A stretch of 38,053 bases of DNA from a virus (IMGVR_UViG_3300037424_001533:1-38053); one strand, 5' to 3'. Positions 14,111-37,158 are shown, counted from the first letter of the stretch. Notes: generated from the sequence alone by a model not told the origin. Program-made: numbers and translations.

Positions 14111-14424
14111 TGGCACATGATAATATATACAATCAAGCTGGTGCGGCAAAAATTTATTTTACGACGGCAAATCAAACTGATGCAATTCTCGCAGATGATA
14201 TGGGCCCATGTAAAATTGCCCCAGCGACAGATACAGGATTGCTTTCGTATACAGACCATCTTGGTGTGAGAAGAATATGTGTTGCGCCTGTAAATGGTGT
14301 GACTAAAATAAGTGAACATTATGGATTGTTTGAAATAACTGAAGATGGGAATGTTCGACTTGGTATAAAAATTACAGCAGACGGAGGATTAACATGGACC
14401 GATACAGGAATGCGTTTACTTTAA
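14110..14424 (+). CDS. Hypothetical protein (tail module)
   Basis: TAATG coupling to the previous gene. Confidence 0.6.
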   Translation: MAHDNIYNQAGAAKIYFTTANQTDAILADDMGPCKIAPATDTGLLSYTDHLGVRRICVAPVNGVTKISEHYGLFEITEDGNVRLGIKITADGGLTWTDTGMRLL

Positions 14425-17171
14425 TTTTGTTATTTATATTTATGGTCAGTAGTTATGAAATGACTACTGATTCTATAAAAATGTTAAAGTCATCAGCGGC
14501 AACGGCTGCGTCGGATTCTTTTCTCGTTCAGCAACAAGGTAAAATTAAAAGGCGAACTAAAGCACAAGTACTTATAGATATTGAGGCACTTGGTTTACAC
14601 GCAACTGCCGACTCCGCCGCAAAAGCCTATCCTACTTCCCGCGCAACGGGTGATCTATCCGGCCAGTACCCAGCTCCGAAGGTGACAAAGATCAACACAG
14701 ACACGGTTCCTGGTCACGCGGTGGGGGCGTTATATTGGACGGGAGCGGCGCTGGCGTGGAAGGACAGCGTACACAAATCCGATACGGCCTTATGTGTTGA
14801 CAATCGCTATTTACCGAGGGTCAACGTTTCCGGCACGACAAATTACCTTGCCAAATTTACCGGAGTTGATACGCTGGGAGTCAGTCAATTTTTTGACAAC
14901 ACGACAAATCCGAGGGTAGGCGCGTCGGCATCTTCGAGTTTTTTTACAATCGGGGGCACATGCTATATAACAGGGTTGACTAAAATCAACGATAGCACAG
15001 TATCAGTTAAGGGGATTTCAGCGCCGATTATGACCGCGACGCGGTTTCAGGGTACGGCCGATAGCGCGACAAAAGCATATCCCACATCGGCGGCCGGAGG
15101 TGGTCTGGGCGGCTCGTATCCTAACCCTACAGTTGACGGAATGACAGGCGGGATAGCCGACAGTTCCCTCGACGCTGGCAAGTGGGCTGGGCGTGATTGG
15201 GGTAGTGTTGTAGATACAGCAAGGGGCGCAAATCTTCTTGACGGCTTACATTCGTCTGCATTTCTTTTGCTCCATGCCAAGGCCGACTCATCGGTCAAAG
15301 CCGACACAGCCCTAAACGCCCGCAATCACGGCGTGACCGTCGGTACTCTCCCGGTCGCTGCGGCAGGGGCGGCGTGGGGGCCGAGCTTGCTGAGTCAGAG
15401 CGGAGCAACATTGTCTTTTGCCGGAAATTTACAAACAGACGGATTAACGCGGTACATGGGATTTGCATATCCAGGATATACAACAACGTGGCTTGGTGGT
15501 TTTTATTTTGACTTAGGGAGCAGGGTTGTTAACATAAATGCGTTTTCGGATGTTGACGACCAGACCATAACAATTTCCGGCGGCTCTCTCGGCTCTCCAA
15601 AGATACGAATGATAATGCGCGGTGGGTATTCTGGTACGGCTGAATATGCGGGCAACATTGGGTTTGGCCCTACTACAATCGGTGAGTTGCAAAACGCAAT
15701 GATAACAGTCCAGCGCAGTGGAAACGGACCAACCAGTGGTAGCGGTTGGCCAGGAATACGGTTTTTAAATCCACTTGTGACAAAGGGAGATGGCGCGACA
15801 ACATTCAATTTTTCAGGGATGAAATTTGAGTCTGGAAATGGGATAGTTACGGGTTATTTTTTAACTCAATATGATGATGTTCGCAGTGGGTTTTTATTAG
15901 GCACATCCTCAAATCATCCTGCTTACATTGGTACAAATAATACCATACGACTCACGATAGGAGCAGACGGCACGTATACGTTTGCACCCCTCGGCACAGG
16001 CCGCCCGTTGTTGACAAGTGGGGTAATGTCCCTTGCCGCCCTGACCGCTGCGGAAATGGCGGCGCTGTTTACGAGCAATACGACAAACAAAATCGCCATT
16101 ATGTCGGGCACGAATACAATTGGAAACTCCCTGCACCTTGCGGAAAATGCGGCGGGGGTAGGCATCGGCACGACTGCGCCGGACGTAATAAACGGTATCA
16201 CGATAGCATCTCAAAAAATACTGAATTTGTATAATGCGGCCGACGTTGCACGCATAGCAATACAGGGCACCGCTGCTATAATCGACCTGGTTGATATAGA
16301 TGCAGCTGCACATTGTAAACACATGCAAATTAATACGGAAAGCAACGTCACAAAATTTCGGTCAATTGACGATGCTGGAGGGGTGCAGGCAGACAATATT
16401 TTATGCATAAAACACAATACGGGCCTCTTCGGCATCGGTACGACAGCGCCAGGTGCAAAGAACGAAATCGCGTCCGCATCTGCAATAACTCAAATTATCT
16501 CAGGCTATACGCAAACTCCCAAAATACAATTCCAGCGTAGCGGATCGGCAACTATTGGAACGCTCGTGGCTACCAGCGACCAGGACACGCTTGGCGGAAT
16601 GACAGCGTATGGTGTAAATGTTACCGATGATACACGGCTTAACGCGGGTGGAATTATCAATCGACAAATAGGAACCGTTGCATCATCCGGCGTAAAATCG
16701 CAATGGGAAATTCTGGCAAGAGGTGGACAAGGGCAACCGGACGGAACAGTGCTTGTAAAAAGTGATACAATTGACGCAACGCAAGCTTTAAATATCGGCG
16801 GAGGTCTTTATAGTGGCGGCGGATTCTCTTTTTTTCCACCCGAAGATTTTGATAATTGGGTAAGAGGTAACAATACAAACCGAACCTGGTTTGCCGGTGG
16901 TAGTTTTTATGTAATAACCGGAGATTCCGTCAGATTAATAGAGGCACAACAGGCCGACACTTCGGTTACATTGCTAAACGATATAAAATTCAAGGGCGGG
17001 CATACAACGACTCCACCAACATCGGCACAAATGGCTACAGGAGGTGGAGTTTATCAGGTTTATAGAGGTACTGCTGTTCCGGCAATTGATACGCTTTTGG
17101 CAAAACCGGCCGGATGGGTCAAGATTGTAATAAGTGGCCAAAATTACAAAATACCGTATTATCTCGAATAG
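14394..17171 (+). CDS. Tail fibre/adhesin-like protein with hydrophobic N-terminus
   Basis: RBS GGAGG; Gly/Thr/Ala-rich; two GIGTTAP motifs; internal repeat ADSAxKAYPTS..G.L.G.YP.P.V. Confidence 0.65.
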   Translation: MDRYRNAFTLILLFIFMVSSYEMTTDSIKMLKSSAATAASDSFLVQQQGKIKRRTKAQVLIDIEALGLHATADSAAKAYPTSRATGDLSGQYPAPKVTKINTDTVPGHAVGALYWTGAALAWKDSVHKSDTALCVDNRYLPRVNVSGTTNYLAKFTGVDTLGVSQFFDNTTNPRVGASASSSFFTIGGTCYITGLTKINDSTVSVKGISAPIMTATRFQGTADSATKAYPTSAAGGGLGGSYPNPTVDGMTGGIADSSLDAGKWAGRDWGSVVDTARGANLLDGLHSSAFLLLHAKADSSVKADTALNARNHGVTVGTLPVAAAGAAWGPSLLSQSGATLSFAGNLQTDGLTRYMGFAYPGYTTTWLGGFYFDLGSRVVNINAFSDVDDQTITISGGSLGSPKIRMIMRGGYSGTAEYAGNIGFGPTTIGELQNAMITVQRSGNGPTSGSGWPGIRFLNPLVTKGDGATTFNFSGMKFESGNGIVTGYFLTQYDDVRSGFLLGTSSNHPAYIGTNNTIRLTIGADGTYTFAPLGTGRPLLTSGVMSLAALTAAEMAALFTSNTTNKIAIMSGTNTIGNSLHLAENAAGVGIGTTAPDVINGITIASQKILNLYNAADVARIAIQGTAAIIDLVDIDAAAHCKHMQINTESNVTKFRSIDDAGGVQADNILCIKHNTGLFGIGTTAPGAKNEIASASAITQIISGYTQTPKIQFQRSGSATIGTLVATSDQDTLGGMTAYGVNVTDDTRLNAGGIINRQIGTVASSGVKSQWEILARGGQGQPDGTVLVKSDTIDATQALNIGGGLYSGGGFSFFPPEDFDNWVRGNNTNRTWFAGGSFYVITGDSVRLIEAQQADTSVTLLNDIKFKGGHTTTPPTSAQMATGGGVYQVYRGTAVPAIDTLLAKPAGWVKIVISGQNYKIPYYLE

Positions 17172-17182
17172 AAAGGTCTTTC

Positions 17183-17467
17183 ATGAAATCACTTCTTCTT
17201 GTTTTTGCAATCACGGCGTTCTCGTTTTCACAGATCGGCAAGAATGACAAACTGGACCATATTAAATTCAACGCCGACAGCACAAAGATAAAAGCGTTTT
17301 ACATCCACTATCCCGCAGGGCCATTTATGGGGGGTGGGGCGGATTCGATGTACCCGTATGTCAACATATACAAAATCAAAACGGGGAAGATCGTTCTGGA
17401 CACGATGAAAATCGGAGCATACGTGCCGCAAAAAGTAGTGCCTGACTCAATGAAATGGGTGGAATAA
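17183..17467 (+). CDS. Hypothetical protein with predicted signal peptide
   Basis: RBS GAAAGG then MKSLLLVFAITAFSFSQ. Confidence 0.6.
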   Translation: MKSLLLVFAITAFSFSQIGKNDKLDHIKFNADSTKIKAFYIHYPAGPFMGGGADSMYPYVNIYKIKTGKIVLDTMKIGAYVPQKVVPDSMKWVE

Positions 17468-17469
17468 TC

Positions 17470-17700
17470 ATGGCTGGCAGTGAAAGCGTCAGGGAAGAAA
17501 AACTGGATCAATTGCGAGAAACCACGGGCGCGGCAGGTGAATCAATAGCCGATATGTGCGGCGTATGCGCGCAACGAGAAAGAAACATAGGGTTGATTAA
17601 TGTTCGTATGGACTCGTTCGACGAACGCCTTTCAAAGTTGGAAAAAACGCGGGATGAAAAGCTTGACCTGATTATTGACATGCTGAAAAGGATGATATGA
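17470..17700 (+). CDS. Hypothetical coiled-coil protein
   Basis: Tightly packed ORF with ATGA overlap to the next gene; start inferred. Confidence 0.55.
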   Translation: MAGSESVREEKLDQLRETTGAAGESIADMCGVCAQRERNIGLINVRMDSFDERLSKLEKTRDEKLDLIIDMLKRMI

Positions 17701-17975
17701 AATTACAATCATGGGTATTATCAATTCTTGGGACCGTTATGGCGGCAGCTATTATCGGCGGTGGTAGCATGATAATCAATGCAAATTCAGAAATAAAATC
17801 CCTAAAAGTTACCGATAAATATTACGACGCACAGATGATAAATTTTAAAGTAGACACAAAGGCGGACATAAAAGAGGTGAAGGACCTTGTAAAAGAACTT
17901 AGAACTGAAATCAGACAAGACAACGATGAAATTAAGAAGATGATTGAACAAAGAAACGAAAGGCGGCCAAGATGA
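17697..17975 (+). CDS. Membrane-anchored coiled-coil protein (holin/lysis-associated candidate)
   Basis: One N-terminal hydrophobic helix, directly before the endolysin. Confidence 0.5.
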   Translation: MKLQSWVLSILGTVMAAAIIGGGSMIINANSEIKSLKVTDKYYDAQMINFKVDTKADIKEVKDLVKELRTEIRQDNDEIKKMIEQRNERRPR

Positions 17976-18325
17976 AATTAATCAATCATCAATTTGCTTT
18001 CATCCGAGACATTGCAAAGCTCTATAATTTTGTCGAAAATTCCGGCGATATGTGTACGCTCGGATGGGGATTTAGAACAACTGAAATGCAGGCGCTTTTT
18101 GTTAAAACCGGACTGTCAAAAACGATGAATAGCAACCACCCGAAACGGCTCGCGCAAGATTTGAATTTCTTCGTCAAAGGTGTTTTGACATATAAGAAAG
18201 AAGATTTGCAGCGGTATGGCGATTACTGGGAAAGTCTTTCGCCCGAGAACAGGTGGGGCGGAAATTTTAAAGACTCAAAAGGGGAACCGTTTGAAGACAC
18301 GGATCATTTTGAAAGGAACGCATGA
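17972..18325 (+). CDS. Endolysin, peptidase M15 family
   Basis: R...Q, SNHxxxLAQD, WGGNF and DTDHFE zinc-peptidase motifs. Confidence 0.85.
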   Translation: MKLINHQFAFIRDIAKLYNFVENSGDMCTLGWGFRTTEMQALFVKTGLSKTMNSNHPKRLAQDLNFFVKGVLTYKKEDLQRYGDYWESLSPENRWGGNFKDSKGEPFEDTDHFERNA

Positions 18326-18469
18326 ATGGACATTGATCTCGAATATCATCTTGCGAAACGGCGCAAGGAAATAAAAAAGCTCAAAATAGTAAAGCAGGAT
18401 TTTGAGACGTTGAAAGCGTTGAATGAAAAAACTGAGAAACAATTCAAAAACGACGGCGATGACGATTAA
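18326..18469 (+). CDS. Small hypothetical protein (47 aa, not in ORF track)
   Basis: MDIDLEYHLAKRRKE...DGDDD; AAGGA upstream; fills the gap between genes. Confidence 0.5.
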   Translation: MDIDLEYHLAKRRKEIKKLKIVKQDFETLKALNEKTEKQFKNDGDDD

Positions 18470-18491
18470 ACCTTAACAAAGGAGTGACGGT

Positions 18492-18704
18492 ATGATTAAA
18501 GCAATTTTCGGGCAGATTTTCAATGGTCAGAAATTGAACACTGGCCTGGTCATGGTTGCGGCGGTTTTTGTTTTGCAACAGCTCGGCCTTGACCATAGCG
18601 CGGCAGTGCAGACAGCATCCGCAATCATGGCGGGGATCGGCGGCGTGTGGGCGCTAATAGGTTTGATCCATAAATATATCAAGGGGATCAAAACCGCAAA
18701 ATAA
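18492..18704 (+). CDS. Putative holin (two TM helices)
   Basis: RBS AAGGAG; two hydrophobic segments and a basic C-terminus; near the endolysin. Confidence 0.6.
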   Translation: MIKAIFGQIFNGQKLNTGLVMVAAVFVLQQLGLDHSAAVQTASAIMAGIGGVWALIGLIHKYIKGIKTAK

Positions 18705-18776
18705 CCATTTTCCCAACATCAACACCATGGCCAAGTGGCACCGGCCTCGCGGTCCGGACTTTCCGCGCAATTCAAC

Positions 18777-18808
18777 AAGGCTGCTCAATCGAGCGGCCTT
18801 TTTATTTT
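18777..18808 (+). terminator. Rho-independent terminator of the late operon
   Basis: AAGGCTGCTC-aatc-GAGCGGCCTT followed by a T run, at the point where the two arms converge. Confidence 0.75.
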
Positions 18809-18985
18809 CAAGGGATGAAAAATAAGATGTGCCGGAAAATATCGCGCCCACCTATTCCGAGAAAAATGCAGAGCCACACCAACAAAGCGGAAATTATCAT
18901 GCTTGGAATTATCACGACGAGGCATGCGTGGAAGATCAGATAAAATCCGTTTACATGCCACCACAATTCAATCCGTATTCTGCGC

Positions 18986-19339
18986 TTACTTTTTCGATAG
19001 GACATTTGTATCCTCGTGTATCTTTTGCCACAAATCGCCGTTGCAGTTTGACCAACCACAACCACGAATGCAATTTTTGTAATCGCCACAAGTTAAGCAC
19101 GAACGATGAATTTCTTGCCCTTGCGCTGTTGTGGGTTTAAGCTCACCATCTACGCCCGCGAGTTTGGCCGCTTCCGCTGATTCTTGCGCGGCAATTTTAT
19201 TGTTAATGTCTTCCTCATACATAATTGACATGGTAATTCCAGCAATACTTGCAATGTCACTATTTGAAATATCACTTAGCGTGCACATTTCTCTTACTTT
19301 GTTAATAATCGCTATTGCGAGTTCGTCAACTGTTTTCAT
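18986..19339 (-). CDS. Cassette 10 hypothetical protein (117 aa, Cys-rich C-terminus)
   Basis: RBS AAGGAG before ATG at 19339 (MKTVDELA). Confidence 0.65.
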   Translation of the reverse strand: MKTVDELAIAIINKVREMCTLSDISNSDIASIAGITMSIMYEEDINNKIAAQESAEAAKLAGVDGELKPTTAQGQEIHRSCLTCGDYKNCIRGCGWSNCNGDLWQKIHEDTNVLSKK

Positions 19340-19380
19340 TTTTTTACTCCTTGCCACACTATTATCAGCGGCCAAATTAC

Positions 19381-19451
19381 CCACAACGTTGATGCATGGT
19401 GAAGTTGCGTTTCGCAATTTGCGTGTACACACCACCATGCATTTGTTGTAC
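19381..19451 (-). repeat. attC-like site (end of cassette 9)
   Basis: + strand: CCACAAC gttg ATGCATGGTG ... CACCATGCAT tt GTTGTAC. Confidence 0.8.
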
Positions 19452-19465
19452 GCACGTAAACCGAA

Positions 19466-19666
19466 TTACCGCTGTTTAAAACCGCGCATTCTTTTCTGAT
19501 TTTTGCCACGCTGATTATTTTTACGAGCACGCATGATCGATCCCATGTCGAAATCTCCCCCGTACATTTGCGGTGAACCAAAAACCGGAACGGCCAACCC
19601 GCTTTTCTTTGCCGTTCCAACTGCTGCCAGCATTAACGCTGCGCGTACCAACCCTGCTATTTTCAT
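19466..19666 (-). CDS. Cassette 9 hypothetical basic protein
   Basis: RBS AGGAGGAG; 66 aa. Confidence 0.65.
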   Translation of the reverse strand: MKIAGLVRAALMLAAVGTAKKSGLAVPVFGSPQMYGGDFDMGSIMRARKNNQRGKNQKRMRGFKQR

Positions 19667-19713
19667 TTTCTCCTCCTGCGCGGTTTACAATGTGAAAAAT
19701 TTGGTTTATTGTG

Positions 19714-19867
19714 TCGCAACGCGTGCGATTATGCGCAGTTCGGCTCTTTGGCCGAATTGAGGCGCATTAGTAAGTTGTCAACAGATTCTGCCCCTATGGT
19801 AAAATGATGCTCTTGACACCACCGAATTACCGTGTTGAATTGCGCCGTAGCATAGCGGCTGTTGGTG
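19714..19867 (-). repeat. attC-like site, long (end of cassette 8)
   Basis: TCGCAAC..ATGC GCAGTTCGGC ... GTTGAATTGCGC..GCATAGCGGC t GTTGGTG; imperfect pairing. Confidence 0.65.
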
Positions 19868-20043
19868 GACGGTTGCTTGCCTTTTATTTCGGAGGCGCGG
19901 AACACTATGTCGTCAAGAAAAAAATGCCTCTTGCAATATTTACCAATGCCCGCACATCCTGTATTATCGTTAATTTTAGTATATCTCCGCCTGAGACTAC
20001 GCAAATAAAATTGTTCGCCTACTACCAAATTTTTAAATAACAT
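19729..20043 (-). CDS. Cassette 8 hypothetical protein
   Basis: AGGGGG before ATG at 20043 (MLFKNL). Confidence 0.6.
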   Translation of the reverse strand: MLFKNLVVGEQFYLRSLRRRYTKINDNTGCAGIGKYCKRHFFLDDIVFRASEIKGKQPSTNSRYATAQFNTVIRWCQEHHFTIGAESVDNLLMRLNSAKEPNCA

Positions 20044-20105
20044 CGCGCCCCCTATATTCAACTGGCAATGTACACCAACGACCGGTAATGGTTCACCGGC
20101 ATTTA

Positions 20106-20179
20106 CACCAACGGTCCCGCGGTAAGCCCGACGTTGTGCTTCACAATGTGCGAATGCGAACGGGCTACCGCTGTTATAC
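20106..20179 (-). repeat. attC-like site (end of cassette 7)
   Basis: CACCAAC..GCGGTAAGCCCG ... CGGGCTACCGC t GTTATAC, with one extrahelical base. Confidence 0.8.
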
Positions 20180-20217
20180 GAAGTTTGCGACGATTCATTA
20201 ATGTTCTGCCGCCGCTC

Positions 20218-20544
20218 TTAGATTTTCCGCACATGGTTTACAGGACGAGTAAAGTTATACTCCAGCTTGCGTTGTACCGCCTCAATCATTAACTCAGGCG
20301 AAATATCAACACCTGTTAGGTTGCAAGCGCGAATGATTACATCAGCAAGTTCCGAGACAAAACCCTCCGGTTTGCCATCCGCCCTATACCGAAGGCCCAT
20401 ATCACCACCGCGAATGCACTCAGCCGCTTCAGCGCATTCCCCAACAACAAGCATAAGCGATTCAAGAGCACTGAGTTTACCCCAATCATGCCGCGCATTG
20501 TTTTCCCCCGAAAGGCGAATAATTTCACTAAGCGCTATATCCAT
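20218..20544 (-). CDS. Cassette 7: MazG-like NTP pyrophosphohydrolase
   Basis: LMLVVGECAEAAE...SELADVIIR (ExxE...ExxD), KLEYN. Confidence 0.75.
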   Translation of the reverse strand: MDIALSEIIRLSGENNARHDWGKLSALESLMLVVGECAEAAECIRGGDMGLRYRADGKPEGFVSELADVIIRACNLTGVDISPELMIEAVQRKLEYNFTRPVNHVRKI

Positions 20545-20595
20545 TTTATTTTCCTTTCTTGCGGCGGCCTATCAAACAGACTCGTCGCAAATTTT

Positions 20596-20747
20596 GTATA
20601 ACGTGCAACTAATTGCGAAGTTGCCGTACAAGATCGTCTATTAATGCAGTTACAGCCTCGCGATCTCCTTCAGGTAATTTAACACACAAATCCTCTATTT
20701 TATCAAGTACGGCAATTTGCGTAGCGCACGCAATTTGTTTGTTGGCT
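20596..20747 (-). repeat. attC-like site, long (end of cassette 6)
   Basis: GTATAAC gtgc AACTAATTGCG AAGTTGCCGTAC ... GTACGGCAATTT..CGCAATTTGTT t GTTGGCT. Confidence 0.75.
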
Positions 20748-20950
20748 GCGGCTACTGCCGGAACTATGCCCGGTGACTCCAATGTAATCTGGAGGCGGTT
20801 TGCCGTATCTTTGTCTACAGCAAAAACGGGAACGGTATATCCATCATCACCCTGACCACGACGCATCCTGTCGTCCTTAATGTCGGTATATTCAAAACGG
20901 CGAGATTGCGGGTTAAACCAGCCGACCTGCGAAAACTCTTTTACTGACAT
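20609..20950 (-). CDS. Cassette 6 hypothetical protein
   Basis: RBS AGGAGG; 113 aa. Confidence 0.65.
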   Translation of the reverse strand: MSVKEFSQVGWFNPQSRRFEYTDIKDDRMRRGQGDDGYTVPVFAVDKDTANRLQITLESPGIVPAVAAANKQIACATQIAVLDKIEDLCVKLPEGDREAVTALIDDLVRQLRN

Positions 20951-20986
20951 TGCAGCCTCCTATTTACATGGTTCACCGGGCATTGC

Positions 20987-21072
20987 AGCCAACGTGCGCC
21001 GCATGGCCGAAGTACCGGCCTATAAATCCAATACTAAAGTGTTGCCGGTATTTTGGCCTGCGGCTGTTAGGC
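20987..21072 (-). repeat. attC-like site (end of cassette 5)
   Basis: AGCCAAC gtgc GCCGCA t GGCCGAAGTACCGGC ... GCCGGTATTTTGGCC TGCGGC t GTTAGGC. Confidence 0.85.
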
Positions 21073-21691
21073 GCTGTACCGGCTCCGCTCCCTGTTCTGA
21101 GCGCGCATTCTTGATTGATTCGTAAACGTATAAGCCCAATTCTGGATCAGTACAGTTCCGCAACGACAGCCTTTTGTTTTCTATCTTGCTTTTTGAAATG
21201 TCCAATCCGTATGTAAAGTCGGATATTGCGTTTTTGCTTCGTATATCGCTCGGTTTGAATTGCTTGTCCTGAATATTAAAATTTGTCCAGACCAAGTGCC
21301 TACCCAAAACCGCCGATGGGGCAACGAGCGGTTGATAATAAGGTTTTGTGTTCTCAACACAATAAAGACCAGAAAAGTAATGTTTCAAAAAAATGATTTC
21401 TTCGTATAGTTTCATATCTGGAAATACCGCCGAATAACCCTTTGCGCGAAACCCAACATTGTACCGATACTGCCCGTGAGTTGGGCAAGGTGGACTCGAC
21501 CAAATAAAATCAAATTCAGAATAATGTTCCTGTAAATAAGAGTGAGCATCACCAACCACTACATTATCGTGAGGAAAAAATTGTAAGTAACAATGTGCGA
21601 TTTTCTGGTCGAGTTCCACAGCTGTTACTTCGCAATCCGTCCACAACTTGCGGTTGCCCCCGATGCCAGCGTATAGATTCAGTATTTTCAT
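21020..21691 (-). CDS. Cassette 5: short C5-cytosine DNA methyltransferase
   Basis: LYAGIGG (motif I), SPPC (IV), VEN (VI). Confidence 0.8.
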   Translation of the reverse strand: MKILNLYAGIGGNRKLWTDCEVTAVELDQKIAHCYLQFFPHDNVVVGDAHSYLQEHYSEFDFIWSSPPCPTHGQYRYNVGFRAKGYSAVFPDMKLYEEIIFLKHYFSGLYCVENTKPYYQPLVAPSAVLGRHLVWTNFNIQDKQFKPSDIRSKNAISDFTYGLDISKSKIENKRLSLRNCTDPELGLYVYESIKNARSEQGAEPVQRLTAAGQNTGNTLVLDL

Positions 21692-21738
21692 TTCTTAATT
21701 TCCTGCGCGCTCTTAAAAATGGTCGGAGCCGGTATTGC

Positions 21739-21809
21739 GCCTAACGGTTGACCAAGTGCGAAGTGCTGTACTCAGCATTTAGGCTTCCGGTGCACTTGGT
21801 TTGTTAGGC
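21739..21809 (-). repeat. attC-like site (end of cassette 4)
   Basis: GCCTAAC ggttg ACCAAGTGC ... GCACTTGGT tt GTTAGGC; canonical RYYYAAC/GTTRRRY boxes. Confidence 0.85.
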
Positions 21810-22072
21810 GCTGAATTGCCTGCTTCCGCAGTGTCAGCCGCGCCTCTTCCGTCTGTCTTTTTTCCATTGTGAATAACAAAACCGGACGGATCAACATATA
21901 CTTTTCCACAATCGCACAATTCTTTGTTTACGGTTATTGTGCGAGGCCCAACCACATGAATATCGTGAGCTATTAAATACGCCGATATCGCCATAGCAAC
22001 ATCGAACCCAGTAAGAAAAATATCAACACCGGGGCCATACTCTGTAATACCTTTACCGTATTCTATTTTCAT
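21779..22072 (-). CDS. Cassette 4 hypothetical protein
   Basis: RBS GAGGA; 97 aa. Confidence 0.7.
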   Translation of the reverse strand: MKIEYGKGITEYGPGVDIFLTGFDVAMAISAYLIAHDIHVVGPRTITVNKELCDCGKVYVDPSGFVIHNGKKTDGRGAADTAEAGNSAPNKPSAPEA

Positions 22073-22122
22073 TTTTCCTCTTTTCGGCGCGGCCTACTTG
22101 TATAAAGAGCAGGCAATTTTGC

Positions 22123-22199
22123 GCCTAACGGGAAAGTATGTTGCTGTTTGGTACAACCGCATATTCACTTTCCCAAATGGAAACATACGGTTGTTGTTT
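22123..22199 (-). repeat. attC-like site (end of cassette 3)
   Basis: GCCTAAC..GTATGTT..TTTGG ... CCAAA..AACATAC..GTTGTTT. Confidence 0.7.
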
Positions 22200-22239
22200 T
22201 TATGTTTGCCGGGCTTCCTTGATTTGCTTCCGGCGCATC

Positions 22240-22476
22240 TTACGTTCTTTGCAACCAAAACACGTCAATCCAATATTCGTTTCCGGTGTGACTTCGCACC
22301 TTGATCTGCTCACCAAATTCGGAAGTCTGAATAACCTCGGCAGAAATATTTTTTCGCCACTTAAAAAAATGCACCATAGACCCGACAGGAAAGGCCAAAG
22401 GAATAGTTTCTCGAATAGAGTTTGTTAATGCCTTCCTCTTTAGTTCCAACGATGTCAATTTGAGCTTATAATTCAT
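22240..22476 (-). CDS. Cassette 3 hypothetical protein
   Basis: RBS GAGGAG; 78 aa. Confidence 0.7.
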   Translation of the reverse strand: MNYKLKLTSLELKRKALTNSIRETIPLAFPVGSMVHFFKWRKNISAEVIQTSEFGEQIKVRSHTGNEYWIDVFWLQRT

Positions 22477-22522
22477 GTTTCTCCTCGCGCCGGACTATCC
22501 ATTCAGAAGCCCGGCAAATTGA

Positions 22523-22614
22523 AAACAACGGCGGTCGTACCGTCTGAAGTGACGGTAGCCGCTTTATTTTTGATCTCCATTGGCTACCGGCATTTCAGAC
22601 TGCGACTGTTGGAT
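22523..22614 (-). repeat. attC-like site (end of cassette 2)
   Basis: AAACAAC ggcg GTCGTA cc GTCTGAAGTG a CGGTAGCC ... GGCTACCG g CATTTCAGAC TGCGAC t GTTGGAT. Confidence 0.8.
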
Positions 22615-22878
22615 TTTGGCCGCGTCTGCGCGGACAGAATCCAACAGGCAATCTGGTACGACCGCCGTTGGATTCAAGCTCAGGCCGGGTTTATCCCGGA
22701 CTCCCGCTGCGCTGACTGCATACGATTCCACAAGTTTTTGTCGAGCCAAACACATGCCCGCGATGGCGTTCCTTGCTGCTTCGGCTGTACCAAACTTCGC
22801 ATCGTTTAATGCTGTTTCTAAAATCCTACAAAGATTCGTGAGATTGTTGTTGAAAACAGCTTCAGTTTCGTTTGTCAT
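22564..22878 (-). CDS. Cassette 2 hypothetical protein
   Basis: GAAAGGT upstream; 104 aa. Confidence 0.6.
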   Translation of the reverse strand: MTNETEAVFNNNLTNLCRILETALNDAKFGTAEAARNAIAGMCLARQKLVESYAVSAAGVRDKPGLSLNPTAVVPDCLLDSVRADAAKIQQSQSEMPVANGDQK

Positions 22879-22926
22879 TTGGCTCGACCTTTCAATTTAT
22901 AGGACTCAGAGCGCAGCGGGGCTTGA

Positions 22927-23009
22927 ATCCAACGTTCTGCGCTATGCTGACGTTGCCGGTTCCTCCGGCAATGTGGGCGCTGCGCCCGAACAGCATGGCG
23001 CTGTTGTAT
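22927..23009 (-). repeat. attC-like site (end of cassette 1)
   Basis: ATCCAAC gttct GCGCTATGCTG ... CAGCATGGCGC t GTTGTAT. Confidence 0.8.
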
Positions 23010-23256
23010 GCTGTAAACCGGCGCTCCCCATTTCTTCTGCCGCCTGCTTCTCAAAAACCTCGCGTAACGGGCCGTGCGGCAATAGTCTAAAATCCTTTTC
23101 CTTGATCGCCTGTTCAACCAGTACACGACAGGCGTTATCGCAATGAAGCGCGTTTACAATACCGACGATTGCAAAATTGTTGACACGCTCGTCTGGTTGA
23201 ACAGGCAGTATGTAATTGCCGCACACGTCACATTTTGCGCCAGAACTTGTTATCAC
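22942..23256 (-). CDS. Cassette 1 hypothetical protein with CxxC...CxxxC (possible zinc binding)
   Basis: RBS AAGGAGGT before GTG at 23256; CDVC and HCDNAC. Confidence 0.65.
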   Translation of the reverse strand: MITSSGAKCDVCGNYILPVQPDERVNNFAIVGIVNALHCDNACRVLVEQAIKEKDFRLLPHGPLREVFEKQAAEEMGSAGLQHTTAPCCSGAAPTLPEEPATSA

Positions 23257-23304
23257 GATGAACCTCCTTGCAGGCGGCCTATAATATGGTCGCCGGTTTA
23301 TTGC

Positions 23305-23340
23305 AGACAACTATACGTTTGATGAAATAATTAATACTAA
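23305..23340 (-). other. Candidate attI-like primary insertion site of the array
   Basis: First GTT core (AGACAAC on +) has no hairpin arm upstream; abrupt switch to AT-rich DNA. Confidence 0.5.
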
Positions 23341-23558
23341 CATATTGATTTTAAATAATTTTCACTTACATATTCTTTTAATAGTTTGTTCACGGCATAG
23401 TTACAAAAGTGAGAAATGCTCCCGATAAATGGACGAGGACATTTTGGTAATTTAACAGAATAAACTTTGCACAATTCGGCTTTTGCCCGTGTCATAGTAA
23501 TTTGTATAGGGTAATTTTGTAATTGTTTTTCTGTTAAACAGTTCTTTATTTTATTCAT
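23337..23558 (-). CDS. Small protein, possibly a ribbon-helix-helix DNA-binding protein
   Basis: IQITM...SISHFCNYAVNKLLKE pattern; weak. Confidence 0.45.
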   Translation of the reverse strand: MNKIKNCLTEKQLQNYPIQITMTRAKAELCKVYSVKLPKCPRPFIGSISHFCNYAVNKLLKEYVSENYLKSIC

Positions 23559-23610
23559 ATTAATAATATACTTAATAATTAATACAAAAGTATACTTTAT
23601 TTTAAATATT

Positions 23611-23808
23611 TTAATCCCCTATTTTTTCACGTTTAAAAAGAAACCATTCACAACAACGTTTAATCCACTCATCATTTTCTTCCATTTCATCAGGATTTAA
23701 ACTATGAAGAACTTGCTCAACTTCTTTTATGTTTCGTACCTGCTGTACCGGCTTCCTTGAACAATCTTTACACAATACTTCACGACATACTTCTTCAAGT
23801 TTATTCAT
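23611..23808 (-). CDS. Hypothetical protein
   Basis: Start MNKLEEV overlaps the stop of the upstream small ORF. Confidence 0.55.
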   Translation of the reverse strand: MNKLEEVCREVLCKDCSRKPVQQVRNIKEVEQVLHSLNPDEMEENDEWIKRCCEWFLFKREKIGD

Positions 23809-23938
23809 CTGAAAAATCCATCTTGACTTCTTTGACATCCATGAATATCTGTCCATCAAAATCTTGGCCGATGTTCTTGTCCGTAATTAATAATTCCATG
23901 GTAGTAGGATCGTACCGAACACTGATAGTTTTAAGCAT
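23801..23938 (-). CDS. Small hypothetical protein (45 aa, not in ORF track)
   Basis: RBS AAGGA; MLKTISVRYDP...DFSDE; fills the gap between genes. Confidence 0.55.
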   Translation of the reverse strand: MLKTISVRYDPTTMELLITDKNIGQDFDGQIFMDVKEVKMDFSDE

Positions 23939-23940
23939 AA

Positions 23941-24135
23941 TTATTCCTTATATCGTTTATTTTTAGGATTATACTTTGACAATTCTTTCCAAACAGCCCG
24001 ATATTTTTTACTATATAATTCTGATTCAGGGCAATAAGTTAAATCCCGCATAACTCCACATAGCCTTTGAAAACAACCAAAAGGATTACATACTTGGCAT
24101 TGATAAAAGTGTTGTTTAGTTTGTGGATCATTCAT
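23941..24135 (-). CDS. Small Cys-rich hypothetical protein
   Basis: Abuts both neighbours; CQVC..C...C...C. Confidence 0.55.
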   Translation of the reverse strand: MNDPQTKQHFYQCQVCNPFGCFQRLCGVMRDLTYCPESELYSKKYRAVWKELSKYNPKNKRYKE

Positions 24136-24828
24136 TTAAATTTTTCTTGTTATTTTTTTAATAGGTTCAATAATAGACTTTTCCCAGTTTCCAAGAGAAA
24201 GCCATTCCTCTTTGATTTCCGTTGAGGTAAATATGATCCAAACTCTTTGCCCCGTAAGTTCATTTACACTTCGCCACAATATTTTATTTTGTCCACTTGG
24301 CTCAATGAATACCGGGGCAAATTGCCCATCATACTTGCATGCCGCCGAGAGGGCATTGCAAGCTGATTCAAGTCGTGCCCTATTGTAAATGAATCGCTGG
24401 GGTGACGGTAAAGCAGTACCCTGCCACGTTTCCATGAATACCTTTTTCCAATCTCCTATAGGTCTATTAATTCTTCGTAATTCAAAATGCTGAGACTGTG
24501 TACCTGAACGGGTTTCAATGTTTACCAAAGGCCTATCTATCAGTGAGATGGAAGCGTGTTCGAGTATGCCCTTAAAAAGGGTGTCCTTCTGAATTGACTT
24601 GAACAACATTTCTATTGCTGACTTCGGGAATATGCATGCTTCTTTTAATGGGTTATGATCCCCAAAAGGTATTCTATTTAAAACTTCGGTTTTGACTGGT
24701 TCGGAAATATACAAAAGTAAACGATTGCTTGCCACAATAGTCCCATCAGGTTCTATTGAGCACACATCGGTTTTATCATCAAATAAACATGCGAGTGCAC
24801 CACCGAGTATTGCTTTATTTATGATCAT
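24136..24828 (-). CDS. Hypothetical protein, weak resemblance to a sliding-clamp domain
   Basis: 230 aa; IVASNRLLL recalls the beta-clamp VATDGHRL motif; ATGA overlap. Confidence 0.5.
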   Translation of the reverse strand: MIINKAILGGALACLFDDKTDVCSIEPDGTIVASNRLLLYISEPVKTEVLNRIPFGDHNPLKEACIFPKSAIEMLFKSIQKDTLFKGILEHASISLIDRPLVNIETRSGTQSQHFELRRINRPIGDWKKVFMETWQGTALPSPQRFIYNRARLESACNALSAACKYDGQFAPVFIEPSGQNKILWRSVNELTGQRVWIIFTSTEIKEEWLSLGNWEKSIIEPIKKITRKI

Positions 24829-25133
24829 ATAAGTATATTCTCTTTTATATGTTTTGCTATATGATACATCATCTTTGGCATAACAGCATTTCCAAGTAAA
24901 ATACCAGCATCTCCTTTTATTTTATAATCAATGGGAAAAGAACATATTGCTTTTAATTCGTTATCTGTTAAATGTCTTGGTTCTAACCAATGCCAATGTC
25001 TGTGCGTTTTAATCAATGTCGGAGAAACATCATTTGGATCAAGTTTAACAGATTGAAATGTTTCAAAAGACTTATTTTTTTTGCATATTTCCCATCTATC
25101 TAAAATATTTTTAGAATGCTTCTCCTTATTCAT
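24825..25133 (-). CDS. Stand-alone C-terminal module of a C5 DNA methyltransferase (variable region plus motifs IX-X)
   Basis: SPTL...EPRHLTDNELKAICSFP..Y...LGNAVMPKMMYHIAK; start inferred at MNKEKH. Confidence 0.7.
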   Translation of the reverse strand: MNKEKHSKNILDRWEICKKNKSFETFQSVKLDPNDVSPTLIKTHRHWHWLEPRHLTDNELKAICSFPIDYKIKGDAGILLGNAVMPKMMYHIAKHIKENILI

Positions 25134-26244
25134 TTTTATTTGTCCTTTGTGAACCAGTATAACCCTGTCCCGGTCCTTTAGGCATATCAAGCCATTCATT
25201 AAATGTCATCTTCTGGTAATATCCTGCAAGTAACCAAAAATTTCTGAATGCCCTGAGAGTTATTTTATCCCAGTGTTTTCCAATAAAATGATTATCACGA
25301 GAAGTAATATTTAACGGACTATATTGTTGAGGATATGGACGTATTTTAAGTCTGACACATTCTCGCATTCGATAATTTGCCTCATTAATATTATCCGTAA
25401 AATTAAATAAAGCATAGGCCATGATACTGTACTTTGATATTCCTTTTGATAATAATAATTTTATAGATTTTTGAAATATGCCTTCATCGGAAATACGATC
25501 AAAAGCAAGTCGTAAACCGCTTGTTACATAATTTATCTTAGCGAGTTCTCCTGCAATTTTATTATCAATCCATTTGCAATCAAGACCATTTTCAAACATA
25601 ACTTTTTTTTCTATCTTTACAAGATATGAAATGACATTTAAAGCATGGCCAGGAAAAGCAGGAATATTATTATCAAAAATCATAACATATTTTTTATCAA
25701 GTTTAATGCAATCTTTCCATATTGGATTTATCCAAAGTCCGGGCTCTATCCTCGGTACTGCACAATATCCGCATTTATTGACACACCCTCTTGTAGTAAA
25801 AACGATAGAATATTTATCATACGGGTCTTCTACTTTCCAGTCAATATTATAATCAGGAATATTTTCATCAAGTATTTTTGAATACCCCTTAAAAATAAAA
25901 ATATCAGGATATTGTTTATCAATTTCATTTGTTATTAATGATGCCGCTATTCCACCAAGCAATATTTTAGCTTTCGGGCAATATTTTTTTACATCATTAA
26001 TGCTTTGTTGAACCTTATCAAGATCATAAGTAAATAATGAAGTAATGCAAACAAGATCAACATTTTTAAAAAATATGGCATTGTACGCAAACCGATGAAA
26101 ATAAACTTTCTTTCCTTTAAGCATAGTTGCAATTTTCATAAGTCCCAAAGGAGGGTATTTTCTTGGATAATTGGGTTCTAACAAAATCACTTCTTTTCCT
26201 GATTTTATTATTTCAATCATATCTTTTTCATTTATAATAGGCAC
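25126..26244 (-). CDS. Radical SAM protein with B12-binding-like N-terminal domain
   Basis: PPLGLMKIA, LGGIAASL, TRGCVNKCGYC (CxxxCxxC), FDNN. Confidence 0.85.
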   Translation of the reverse strand: MPIINEKDMIEIIKSGKEVILLEPNYPRKYPPLGLMKIATMLKGKKVYFHRFAYNAIFFKNVDLVCITSLFTYDLDKVQQSINDVKKYCPKAKILLGGIAASLITNEIDKQYPDIFIFKGYSKILDENIPDYNIDWKVEDPYDKYSIVFTTRGCVNKCGYCAVPRIEPGLWINPIWKDCIKLDKKYVMIFDNNIPAFPGHALNVISYLVKIEKKVMFENGLDCKWIDNKIAGELAKINYVTSGLRLAFDRISDEGIFQKSIKLLLSKGISKYSIMAYALFNFTDNINEANYRMRECVRLKIRPYPQQYSPLNITSRDNHFIGKHWDKITLRAFRNFWLLAGYYQKMTFNEWLDMPKGPGQGYTGSQRTNKNE

Positions 26245-27251
26245 CGTATCTCCTTTGCAATATGGAACATCATTTTTGGCATGACAGCATTTCCTAATCT
26301 TGCTTTACGTTCCTGGTAACTTCCAAACAATTTATAATTATCAGGAAAAGAACAAAACCTTAATAATTCATTTATAGAAAAAACTCTATTTTCAAATGGA
26401 TGAATTAAACTTCCAAAGCCAATACCGCCAATAATTTTTGTTATTGTCGGACAAACTTTATTTGCATATATACGTATAGTTTGAAAATGTTTATTTTCTT
26501 GACTTACATCATTCATTGATTGGCCTTGTTTCATTTCAGGAATTAATTTTAAAAAACAAGTAGAAAGATTTGGTGGCATTTCATTATTTTGTATTCCTTT
26601 CAATGCCTCTTTTACCGTTATTACTTTCTTACCAGGAACAGGAAAAATCGGTTCTTTTCCAATATCTTTTCTTACTCCAATGAATATTAAGCGTTCCCTG
26701 CTTTGTGGAACTTCATACCACATTGCATTCATCAATTTGCATTTTACAATATATCCTGTTCCTTTTAATATTTCCAATATTTCATTGAATATGCCTTTCA
26801 TCGTTCCTTTCATCATGCCAGAAACGTTTTCCATAATAAATACTTTTGGTTGAAGACCCTTTATCAATCTAACATATTCAAGAAATAAAGTATTTCTGTC
26901 ATCAGAAACTATTCTTTTTCCGGCAGTAGAAAATCCCTGGCATGGAGGAGAACCATCAAGGACATCCAATTCTCCTTTTTTTATTTTGCAAAAAGAAAGT
27001 ATTTCTTCGGGGGTTACTTCTTTAATGTCTCTTTGCCATACTGGAAAATCAAAGTTTGCTTTCAAAGTATCACAAGAATTTTGATCGAAATCTATTGCGA
27101 GCAATTCTTTATATCCTGCCCAGTGATACCCAAGGCTTGATCCTCCACCTCCGGCAAACGTACTAATTACTGTAGGTTGATATTTTGCTATTTTTTTTAC
27201 CATATCGGACAATTCTCTATTTTCATTATATTCTATTTTTCTTGTTATCAT
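26232..27251 (-). CDS. C5-cytosine DNA methyltransferase
   Basis: FAGGGG, GSPPCQGFS, ENV, PQSRER and GNAV motifs; start inferred at MITRKIE just after the ParB stop. Confidence 0.92.
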   Translation of the reverse strand: MITRKIEYNENRELSDMVKKIAKYQPTVISTFAGGGGSSLGYHWAGYKELLAIDFDQNSCDTLKANFDFPVWQRDIKEVTPEEILSFCKIKKGELDVLDGSPPCQGFSTAGKRIVSDDRNTLFLEYVRLIKGLQPKVFIMENVSGMMKGTMKGIFNEILEILKGTGYIVKCKLMNAMWYEVPQSRERLIFIGVRKDIGKEPIFPVPGKKVITVKEALKGIQNNEMPPNLSTCFLKLIPEMKQGQSMNDVSQENKHFQTIRIYANKVCPTITKIIGGIGFGSLIHPFENRVFSINELLRFCSFPDNYKLFGSYQERKARLGNAVMPKMMFHIAKEIRCLL

Positions 27252-27252
27252 T

Positions 27253-27729
27253 TTAGTATCGGTACCCACATTTTGGGCATTCATGTTCGGTTTCTAATTC
27301 TCCTATTTCCTTTTCCTTATTTATCAAAGGTTCAAAAAGATTTTTTACCTCTACTTCATTGAATCCTGAATTGGTTACTATTTCCCTATTATCCATAAAT
27401 CTTAATAATACGCTATCATCCCACTGTGACCACTCACTTGATTTATTGTCGGCAATACCATACGCTATGGCAGCCTGTTCACTGGGAAAGTCTACGAATA
27501 AGACTTTGATCTTAGGCCATCCGAGTTTCTTTATTGCCTTCCATGTGGTATTTCCCTTGTATATGGTCATATTCTTATGCCACACGACAATAGGTGTGAC
27601 CTGTCCGCGGACCTTTAATATTTCCATAAGTTTTGGTACGGCGGCATCATTGATGCGTGGATTATCATTCCACAGTTTTACCGATAATAGTGATACTTCT
27701 TCAATATTATCTTGTTTTTTAGTAATCAT
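27253..27729 (-). CDS. ParB/Srx-like domain protein with C-terminal CPKCG
   Basis: NPRIN, GQVTPIVV, IYKGNTT, IADNK. Confidence 0.8.
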   Translation of the reverse strand: MITKKQDNIEEVSLLSVKLWNDNPRINDAAVPKLMEILKVRGQVTPIVVWHKNMTIYKGNTTWKAIKKLGWPKIKVLFVDFPSEQAAIAYGIADNKSSEWSQWDDSVLLRFMDNREIVTNSGFNEVEVKNLFEPLINKEKEIGELETEHECPKCGYRY

Positions 27730-27741
27730 TTCATTCTCCTT

Positions 27742-28035
27742 TTATAATTTAATAATAGGAATATTATGTTCATAAGCAAATTGACATTCAATATCAGCGC
27801 CTTTGCTTTCTCCCGGCAATCGGACAAGCATATCACATTTCAGTATTTTTGCTTTATCAATTTCAATCCATTCTTTATAATCATGAGAATGTCTTAATTC
27901 GTGATAATGGCTATATAACGGAATGATGGGACAATGGCCAAGTAACATGATCAATTCAGCAAAATCAATTTGTTTATTAACATTTTCTTCTTTACAACCT
28001 ATTGAATATGGCGAAGCAATATAAACTAATTTCAT
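27742..28035 (-). CDS. DUF1937/nucleoside deoxyribosyltransferase-like protein
   Basis: VYIASPYS...CD...RLPGESKGADIE. Confidence 0.65.
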   Translation of the reverse strand: MKLVYIASPYSIGCKEENVNKQIDFAELIMLLGHCPIIPLYSHYHELRHSHDYKEWIEIDKAKILKCDMLVRLPGESKGADIECQFAYEHNIPIIKL

Positions 28036-36864: not shown

Positions 36865-37158
36865 CTAAATAGGTTTAAGAAACATTGAATCAAATAAATA
36901 TTGCGTACCTTTTAAATAATCCTTTTTATAGTGATGACTTACATGTGCAATTATGCCTCCTTTGATATTTCTTTCTGTATGGGATAAGGTAAATGGTTCA
37001 TTTGATAAAACTGAAATCAAATATTGTGTCCCTTTTTTTTTAACAATTAAGAAAGTAATTTTATCAAAATATTTATATTCCAGGTACTTATGAAATTCTC
37101 CCGATTTCATAGGAAACCACTTTACTAATGTGTCAGGTAAAAGAGAACGACGAATCAT
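36865..37158 (-). CDS. Hypothetical protein
   Basis: ATGA overlap with the upstream gene. Confidence 0.55.
   Translation of the reverse strand: MIRRSLLPDTLVKWFPMKSGEFHKYLEYKYFDKITFLIVKKKGTQYLISVLSNEPFTLSHTERNIKGGIIAHVSHHYKKDYLKGTQYLFDSMFLKPI

What the first reader, a model, noticed from the sequence alone, without database searches (positions are those of the whole stretch)
18970..23311. Phage-borne integron-like cassette array: ten accessory genes separated by attC-like sites
Seen: nine imperfect palindromes of 71-154 bp, each bounded by AAC and GTT, separate ten co-oriented single-gene units; the nine fully bounded units are about 330-750 bp. The right-hand box of each palindrome matches the left-hand box of the NEXT palindrome, i.e. 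the two ends of one gene unit. Pairs on the + strand: GTTGTGGGT 19128/ACCCACAAC 19379; GTTGGTG 19861/CACCAAC 20106; GTTATAC 20173/GTATAAC 20596; GTTGGCTGC 20741/GCAGCCAAC 20985; GTTAGGCGC 21066/GCGCCTAAC 21737; GTTAGGCGC 21803/GCGCCTAAC 22121; GTTGTTTT 22193/AAAACAAC 22522; GTTGGATT 22608/AATCCAAC 22926; GTTGTATGC 23003/GCAGACAAC 23303 (one mismatch). Established: this is the pattern left when circular integron cassettes recombine at G/TT, and attC sites are conserved in structure rather than sequence. Inference: the phage uses a site-specific cassette capture and shuffling system for its accessory region. The array looks more GC-rich than its flanks (by eye). The spacers next to the cores are asymmetric (about 1-2 nt versus 4-6 nt), unlike class 1 attC sites.
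Basis: partly seen in the sequence, partly recalled or inferred. Interest (0 to 1): 0.93.

Follow-up and report, generated by a model that had tools for sequence, protein, structure and literature searches.

The report
Phage gene-cassette array, non-standard integron type
This sediment phage keeps ten small accessory genes as cassettes separated by folding DNA sites built like, but not the same as, bacterial integron sites; related phages gain or lose whole cassettes exactly at such sites and carry a short recombinase that likely does the swapping, although none was found in this incomplete genome.

Summary
All nine box pairs lie at the stated coordinates. The array (19128-23311, genes on the minus strand) has ten GTT...AAC gene bodies, nine hairpin sites and a degenerate tenth. 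The sites are not canonical attC. The spacer is about 1 versus 4 nt. The extra base sits on the R' arm rather than the R'' arm. Each body's two ends pair for about 21 bp. G.T wobbles favour the non-coding strand 55:5, so that strand is probably the folded substrate. The 68%-complete contig holds no tyrosine recombinase. Other phage or metagenome contigs with the same site grammar carry a co-oriented recombinase of about 280 aa that lacks the IntI insertion, followed 18-35 nt later by the first cassette (5 of 5 close loci). Two such contigs differ by one 349-nt cassette inserted exactly at G/TT. One window hairpin is 58/58 identical in such a phage. Phage CALINs are in print (PMC9892861); I did not find this site type with this enzyme in seven searches. 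The scan has noted similar systems on other DNA many times. Enzyme activity is untested, and no circles or joints were seen.

The parts
23312..23345 (-). AT-rich stretch ending in TA before the first GTT; candidate attI-like or secondary insertion site, no recombinase upstream
   Evidence: GC step 0.49 to 0.22 at the core; lacks the small hairpin seen in relatives' attI-like sites (by eye)
23003..23311 (-). Body 1 (GTT...AAC), unknown gene reading through into hairpin 1 (stop 22942)
22931..23005 (-). Hairpin site 1 (75 nt, spacer 1/5); 75% alike to a site in G006
22608..22933 (-). Body 2, unknown gene 22878-22564 reading into hairpin 2
22527..22610 (-). Hairpin site 2 (84 nt, spacer 1/4)
22193..22529 (-). 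Body 3, unknown gene 22476-22240
22127..22195 (-). Hairpin site 3 (69 nt, weak or irregular)
21803..22129 (-). Body 4, gene 22072-21779 of a family with 39 homologues found; two homologues keep the body's tail and diverge after the AAC
21743..21805 (-). Hairpin site 4 (63 nt); another organism's copy shows two compensatory pair changes
21066..21745 (-). Body 5, C5 DNA methyltransferase-like gene 21691-21020; the same frame holds other genes in L096 and L107
20991..21068 (-). Hairpin site 5 (78 nt, spacer 1/4, extra base at stem position 7)
20741..20993 (-). Body 6, unknown gene 20950-20609 reading through hairpin 6
20600..20743 (-). Hairpin site 6 (144 nt, long loop, weak fold)
20173..20602 (-). 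Body 7, MazG-like pyrophosphatase 20544-20218 (phrog_3301, E 2.4e-15)
20110..20175 (-). Hairpin site 7 (66 nt); 58/58 identical in recombinase-bearing phage G007 (L108) behind a different body
19861..20112 (-). Body 8, unknown gene, with a duplicated 5' end
19718..19863 (-). Hairpin site 8 (146 nt, degenerate; holds a 9-nt GTT-GAC-AAC mini-unit at 19775-19783)
19445..19720 (-).
19385..19447 (-). Hairpin site 9 (63 nt)
19128..19387 (-). Body 10, unknown gene 19339-18986 reading through the last site
18970..19130 (-). Degenerate terminal site: AAC-A start present, no closing GTT recognised
   Evidence: z about 0 on the non-coding strand for the span tried
18777..18808 (+). Terminator-like stem closing the convergent lysis operon; marks the far boundary
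   Evidence: consensus match only

Best explanation
This is an array of ten gene cassettes of a phage-type, non-canonical integron-like system, in which a short tyrosine recombinase lacking the IntI insertion likely cuts and joins folded single-stranded DNA at the G/TT core; no such enzyme is in this contig, so it would come from the unsequenced part, a co-infecting phage or the host. Shown: each cassette is a body (GTT, gene, AAC) plus a hairpin. Shown in relatives: the recombinase gene lies in the same orientation directly upstream of a docking site, and a whole body-plus-hairpin unit is present or absent exactly at G/TT. Inferred: the non-coding strand folds during replication. In an excised circle the two ends of one body pair for about 21 bp on one side of the AAC/GTT core and the hairpin pairs on the other, giving a two-armed site. 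Circles would thus be better substrates than in-array sites, which would favour insertion over loss. Inferred: without the canonical extra G and the I2 helix, strand choice is looser, so exchange sometimes falls on the AAC side and uncouples hairpins from bodies. Inferred: new cassettes arise when ordinary phage genes recombine into existing frames, possibly through the Sak4-like annealing protein. The likely purpose is turnover of accessory genes such as DNA methyltransferases and MazG-like enzymes. How the junction is resolved without I2 is unknown; replicative resolution is my guess.
For: Boxes and end-pairing far above chance. Among 39 hairpins from the window and 6 loci, mismatches that are G.T on the non-coding strand outnumber the reverse 55 to 5 with neutral scoring (window alone 9 to 1). 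In 34 bodies, unscored position 11 is A in 34 of 34 and faces a base making G.T on that same strand in 29 of 34. An inner stem of 7 nt or more occurs in 24 of 34 cognate ends against 8% of non-cognate pairs. Predicted circle junctions fold more stably than in-array junctions in 9 of 9. L109 and L111 share 594 identical bases of recombinase and docking site and differ by one 349-nt unit inserted at G/TT. A cassette start lies 18-35 nt after the recombinase stop in 5 of 5 close loci (4 distinct enzymes), in 0 of 10 distant recombinase loci, background 8%. The enzyme keeps invariant R, K, H, R, H, Y catalytic positions and has 21 residues where V. cholerae IntI4 has 63. Links to this window: a 58/58 identical hairpin in G007 and the same methyltransferase as a cassette beside the recombinase in complete phage G006. 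Compensatory changes occur in a body end and in a hairpin stem. In PMC9892861 the one phage site of six that IntI1 failed to recombine (P12002L_attC1) has, by my eye, this 1-versus-4 geometry, while the TJE1 and PH101 sites that worked are canonical.
Against: No tyrosine recombinase in the contig (68% complete). G001 (95% complete), with a larger array of the same grammar, also has none, nor do the incomplete G002 and G003. No joints or circles in two contig sets (low depth, contigs drop rare forms). No close relative of this phage with a different cassette order was found, so gain or loss is shown only in other phages, and in one pair. Three of nine hairpins fold weakly, and four of ten bodies (2, 6, 8, 10) pair poorly beyond the first stem, which points to decay. 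The array shares its 46% GC with the tail-fibre and lysis block, so it may have come in as one block. Only 6 of 80 methyltransferase loci had three or more sites on a strand. In print the I2 insertion is described as essential for integron function (PMC8138268, PMC7790495 passages). Adjacency is not activity.
Confidence: 0.7

Rival explanations
1. The cassette grammar is real, but in this phage the array is an orphaned relic. It arrived in one block with the 46% GC tail-fibre and lysis module and now changes only by homologous or annealing-type recombination between repeated frames.
For: No recombinase in the contig. Shared GC with 14394-18800. Degenerate sites and bodies, mostly in the distal half. 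Sak4-like protein at 37155-38027. Gene swaps inside frames need homologous recombination anyway. No variant order in the second run.
Against: The GC step falls exactly on the first GTT. A 58/58 identical hairpin in a recombinase-bearing phage suggests recent exchange. The proximal bodies 1, 4, 5 and 7 keep 15-17 of 19 end matches. This rival accepts the same origin and differs only on present activity.
Confidence: 0.17
2. An ordinary phage CALIN: atypical but genuine attC sites processed by a host IntI, with the short recombinase in relatives a bystander.
For: AAC/GTT cores, G after the R' AAC on the non-coding strand in 36 of 39 sites, the same strand bias and polarity as integrons. IntI1 accepts some phage sites (PMC9892861) and still recombines attC x attI without extrahelical bases at about 6-fold lower rate (PMC2727003 passages). 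Arrays occur in a near-complete genome without any recombinase.
Against: Canonical 5/5 and 5/6 settings find no site in the array on either strand. The extra base is never on the R'' arm alone (0 of 39). The short recombinase abuts the first cassette in 5 of 5 close loci, and the precise insertion is at its docking site. The one published site with this look failed with IntI1.
Confidence: 0.09
3. The hairpins and end repeats act at the RNA level (terminators, processing or stability stems) and spread by homologous recombination, as regulatory cassettes do in some T4-type phages (recalled, not from a call).
For: Several stems match terminator or promoter consensus. 7 of 10 genes read through the sites.
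Against: Wobble pairs favour the non-coding strand, not the mRNA strand (55:5). Invariant AAC/GTT cores, exact G/TT insertion and a dedicated recombinase neighbour. Terminator-like count 11 against 6.8 +/- 2.7 in shuffles is not clearly enriched.
Confidence: 0.04

Closest known systems
CALINs in phage genomes (Qi et al. 2023, PMC9892861; main text and supplement part 1 of 2 read)
   Same: Row of co-oriented single-gene cassettes with AAC/GTT-bounded hairpins in a phage, no intI, DNA methyltransferase cargo.
   Different: Their CALINs in Table S1 have 2-4 sites, and the TJE1 and PH101 sites are canonical (5/5-type spacer, extra G on the R'' arm, by eye from Table S3). This array has nine sites of 1/4 geometry, about 21-bp body-end repeats and phage-type cargo, and relatives have their own short recombinase. 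Their P12002L_attC1 may be of the present type and was the one that failed with IntI1.
Integrons (IntI, attI, attC cassettes; PMC2727003, PMC4889954, PMC7790495, passages read)
   Same: G/TT insertion point, cassette = gene followed by hairpin, folded non-coding strand, G after the R' AAC, insertion next to the recombinase.
   Different: No IntI insertion or I2 helix in the associated enzyme. The enzyme is co-oriented with the docking site at its 3' end. Spacer 1/4; extra base on the opposite arm; end pairing about 21 bp against 9-11 nt reported for most cassettes (PMC2727003); most genes read into the site.
Xer-type simple tyrosine recombinases (archaeal XerA; 'integron-like' subgroup of PMC8138268, passages read)
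   Same: Best profile and structure matches of the relatives' enzyme are XerA-type (NF040815 166 bits, below cut-off 220; PDB 4a8e, 5hxy). PMC8138268 notes that the insertion is not fully conserved in its integron-like subgroup.
   Different: Here the enzyme sits in phages at the head of a cassette array of folded sites. The passages read describe no such role for members without the insertion.

Membership tests
Integron (complete) | intI gene with the IntI-specific insertion (I2 helix) next to the array | tested here: not met
   No PF00589 match in G000 at E<=10 (68% complete). The relatives' enzyme has 21 versus 63 residues across that region of IntI4; TIGR02249 matches in two pieces, 141.9 bits against cut-off 265.
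Integron (complete) | attI site at the head of the array | tested here: inconclusive
   The first GTT at 23311 follows TA and a sharp GC step. It lacks the short hairpin of relatives' docking sites (by eye). In relatives a docking site is shown by a precise insertion.
Integron (complete) | Pc promoter driving the array | tested here: inconclusive
   Only weak sigma-70 consensus hits, one starting at the first core (23310-23281, 9 of 12).
attC site (canonical) | Inverted R''/R' boxes with AAC and GTT cores, complementary within one cassette | tested here: met
   The RYYY/RRRY flanks are often not kept.
attC site (canonical) | Bottom (non-coding) strand is the better-folded strand; G follows the R' AAC | tested here: met
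   Wobble bias 55:5; C before GTT on the gene strand in 36 of 39. Free energy alone favoured that strand clearly in only 4 of 9 window sites.
attC site (canonical) | Near-symmetric central spacer (5/5 or 6/5 nt, as in aadA7, TJE1 and PH101 sites) | tested here: not met
   1/4 in 23 of 39 resolved sites, 1/3 to 1/6 in 12 more, 2/4 or 2/5 in 4. No 5/5 or 5/6 site in the array.
attC site (canonical) | Extrahelical bases (conserved G) on the R''-L'' arm | tested here: not met
   Extra base on the R' arm in 22 of 39, on both arms in 4 of those, on the R'' arm alone in 0, none in 17; mostly at stem position 7.
attC site (canonical) | Recombined by IntI at G/TT | not testable with these tools
   Needs the conjugation assay. 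Natural insertion at G/TT is seen in relatives, enzyme unproven.
CALIN (IntegronFinder definition) | At least two sites matching the attC covariance model | not testable with these tools
   The IntegronFinder model was not available; Rfam gave 0 matches in the window.
CALIN (IntegronFinder definition) | No integron integrase nearby | tested here: met
   the array lies more than 14 kb from both contig ends.

The most novel reading that the evidence does not exclude
Phages run their own integron-like gene economy with an I2-less recombinase on a two-sided folded site. Gene bodies and hairpins are separately exchangeable modules because crossover can fall on either side of the core. Hairpin swaps rewrite the C-termini of the many cargo proteins that read through the site. 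Enzyme-less phages such as this one trade cassettes in trans with enzyme-bearing phages of the same host. This would be a living model of single-strand cassette recombination without the domain thought to have made it possible.
Probability: 0.35. Interest if true: 0.92.

Novelty: new variant of a known kind. Interest (0 to 1): 0.76.

Why it matters
The I2 insertion is held to be what let integron integrases work on folded single strands (PMC7790495, passages). Here a recombinase without it heads arrays of strand-biased hairpin sites, with a natural one-cassette insertion at G/TT. If the enzyme proves active, single-strand cassette recombination does not need I2, and the origin of integrons becomes testable with natural enzymes. 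It would also give a site-specific route for part of phage accessory-gene mosaicism, including methyltransferases, and suggests that attC-model searches miss a class of arrays. This window adds an enzyme-less member tied by an identical hairpin and a shared cassette gene to enzyme-bearing phages.

Tried and rejected
Close relatives of this phage: none through gene 24136-24828, the MazG-like gene or blastn of the array against cultured phages (7 records, methyltransferase only). No host could be assigned: DNA polymerase homologues carried no useful names, and the recombinase clade gave only three distant hits (23-31%) in species genomes and none in cultured phages at E 1e-25. A profile search found 2,921 proteins at E<=1e-30 but gives no context, so it was not used as evidence. 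Pattern search for hairpin 7: 12 matches, 1 real (the same contig as L108), 11 chance. A generic site pattern gave 1 locus with one site. Of the 26 loci from the body-end pattern, three showed clear arrays (L092, L096, L107) and two partial ones (L087, L090). Circles and joints: none in two runs, contigs only, so absence is weak. Canonical attC read in the reverse orientation (suggested by earlier scan notes): rejected for this array, because 5/5 and 5/6 settings find nothing on either strand and wobbles, the conserved G and the natural insertion all make the gene strand the top strand. Per-cassette sigma-70 promoters: a TATAG-like motif recurs around +26 to +33 in 17 of 34 bodies, but the spacing does not fit consistently; left open. 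Recombinase remnant upstream of 23311: none. No covariance model, structure prediction or complex prediction was run. Literature searches. No listing described this site type with an insertion-less enzyme in phages; most subscription papers are outside the library. Part 2 of the Qi supplement and its Dryad annotation file were not seen and may hold further sites of this type.


Full report
Setting. The window is a whole 38,053-base linear virus record, estimated 68% complete, from sediment metagenomes. It encodes tail, lysis, DNA polymerase A, primase, helicase, methyltransferases and a Sak4-like protein; no head or terminase gene was recognised. The array lies at the end of the minus-strand early region and faces the lysis genes across a terminator-like stem at 18777-18800.

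Observation. All nine box pairs are at the stated positions. On the gene strand the array alternates bodies (GTT, gene, AAC; 252-680 nt) and hairpins (AAC...GTT; 63-146 nt): ten bodies and nine hairpins from 23311 to 19128, then a degenerate half site. A detector found 7 sites on the gene strand against 0.37 expected (maximum 2 in 200 shuffles; settings tuned on these sites). Six of nine hairpins fold at z -2.9 or lower on the non-coding strand; three are weak. Ends of the same body match at 11.9 of 19 positions against 5.5 for other pairings, and 0 of 200,000 permutations reach that (body 9 was entered one base off there, which lowers its score). GC is high against the right flank only, with a step exactly at the first core. 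The probable source run holds 18279-24632 in one identical contig, and a second run bridges three cores identically; no joints were seen.

Anatomy. I pooled the window's sites with sites from other fetched phage or metagenome loci of the same grammar. Of 41 hairpins (seven other loci), 39 were resolved: A follows AAC in 37, C precedes GTT in 36, and the spacer is 1 versus 4 nt in 23 and 1 versus 3-6 nt in 12 more. An extra base occurs on the R' arm in 22 (mostly at stem position 7) and never on the R'' arm alone. Canonical sites, as printed in Table S3 of PMC9892861 (read by eye), have 5/5 or 6/5 spacers and an extra G on the R'' arm; PMC2727003 (passages) defines those features. With neutral scoring, mismatches that would be G.T on the non-coding strand outnumber the reverse 55 to 5. 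Body ends read GTT-N6-AA-N10 or 11. In 34 bodies (10 from the window, 24 selected for end matching at other positions) the unscored position 11 is always A and faces a base giving G.T on the non-coding strand in 29. An inner stem of 7 nt or more is present in 24 of 34 against 8% for non-cognate pairs. So the body, like the hairpin, is shaped to fold on the non-coding strand, with the gene in the loop. PMC2727003 gives 9-11 nt as the usual extended pairing; here it reaches about 21. Predicted circle junctions fold more stably than in-array junctions in 9 of 9 cases. Seven of ten genes read through the core into the hairpin.

The enzyme. The contig has no tyrosine recombinase. The closest relative of the cassette methyltransferase (67%, L001, complete phage G006) is itself a cassette with the same grammar, downstream of a co-oriented 279-aa recombinase, the only PF00589 match in that genome. 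The enzyme keeps the catalytic residues across 11 homologues, matches XerA-type models best and has 21 residues where IntI4 has 63. A cassette start follows its stop codon by 18-35 nt in 5 of 5 close loci (four distinct enzymes) and in 0 of 10 distant recombinase loci; background is 8%. The clade was not found in species genomes or cultured phages. Against a simple picture, G001 (219 kb, 95% complete) has a larger array of this grammar and no recombinase.

Natural variation. L109 and L111 are identical over 594 bases of recombinase and docking site. L111 then has one extra 349-nt body-plus-hairpin unit inserted at G/TT, after which 381 bases are identical again. The frame of window body 5 and hairpin 5 holds three different genes in the window, L096 and L107; similarity starts at the 5' GTT, ends at the 3' GTT, and includes a compensatory change in the end repeat. 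Conversely, the methyltransferase sits in different frames in L001 and L045. Three comparisons separate a body from its hairpin at or just after the AAC. Window hairpin 7 is 58/58 identical in L108 behind another body. L109 and L111 diverge 7 nt into the hairpin after an identical body. Two homologues of the body-4 protein keep the body's tail and change after the core (protein level only). PMC2727003 reports that removing extrahelical bases raises top-strand recombination and shifts its crossover to R'', which would fit; homologous recombination fits too. None of these variants comes from a close relative of this phage, as none was found.

Mechanism. Shown: grammar, strand bias, adjacency of the enzyme in relatives, one exact insertion. 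Inferred: the short recombinase acts on the folded non-coding strand at G/TT, circles are favoured substrates, strand choice is loose, and frames are reloaded with ordinary phage genes by homologous recombination. Only 6 of 80 methyltransferase loci had three or more sites on a strand, so this cargo is mostly a plain phage gene. Unknown: the enzyme source for this phage, how the junction is resolved without I2, and the host. I put 0.70 on this reading, 0.17 on an orphaned relic of the same system, 0.09 on host IntI and 0.04 on RNA-level elements.

Comparison with print. PMC9892861 (main text parts 1-4 of 7 and supplement part 1 of 2 read) reports 17 phage CALINs and IntI1 activity on five of six sites. 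The failed site looks by eye like the present type. [quoted passage not shown] PMC8138268 and PMC7790495 (passages) call the insertion essential or the basis of the single-strand activity. PMC9024848 (passages) gave nothing on this type. Seven searches (other papers seen as listings only) showed no description of this site type with an insertion-less phage enzyme. The array works like an integron cassette array but fails the IntI, spacer and extrahelical-base tests, so I do not file it as an integron or as canonical attC. The scan's own notes list 101 findings with these keywords in at least 88 genomes and 36 for arrays without an integrase; these are unchecked notes and are not counted as evidence.

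Verdict. A real, well-supported cassette array of a non-canonical integron-like system of phages: a new variant of a known kind, interest 0.76. The main open point is proof that the short recombinase acts on these sites.

Noticed in passing
window 19775-19783: A 9-nt GTT-GAC-AAC mini-unit inside site 8 splits it into two weaker tandem hairpins; possibly an empty cassette.
   Followed up: partly
window 20050-20112 (minus): Body 8 starts twice: two near-identical GTT starts 33 nt apart, with a tiny hairpin between; possibly a recombination scar.
   Followed up: no
window about 14400-23311: Tail-fibre-like gene, lysis genes and array form a block of about 46% GC in a 35% GC phage, which suggests a module swap.
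   Followed up: partly
window 285-5244: Five consecutive glycosyltransferase or methyltransferase genes just upstream of the tail genes; possibly virion or DNA glycosylation.
   Followed up: no
window 24825-30728: Dense DNA-modification cluster outside the array: C5 methyltransferase, a separate C-terminal methyltransferase piece, radical SAM protein, ParB-like protein and a ParB-helicase-N6/N4 methyltransferase fusion.
   Followed up: no
window 20991-21068; L001:5640-5719, L045:4893-4972, L096:5323-5405, L107:1632-1712: One hairpin family carries in its loop the same TATAGG-type leader and AACA-type trailer motifs that flank genes inside bodies, as if it were a body turned inside out.
   Followed up: no
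L111:940-1648: Two consecutive cassettes with nearly identical ends and hairpins but different genes.
   Followed up: partly
L092:1148-1320: A hairpin with an internal tandem duplication of about 50 nt that includes its AAC start.
   Followed up: no
L072, L076, L002, L012: Other phage contigs with three or more AAC...GTT hairpins on a strand near methyltransferase homologues; in L072 and L076 the units lie on the opposite strand and have a different sequence style.
   Followed up: no
L001, L108, L110, L111 just after the recombinase stop: A short inverted repeat overlapping or following the stop codon precedes the docking GTT in each; absent by eye at window 23312-23345.
   Followed up: partly
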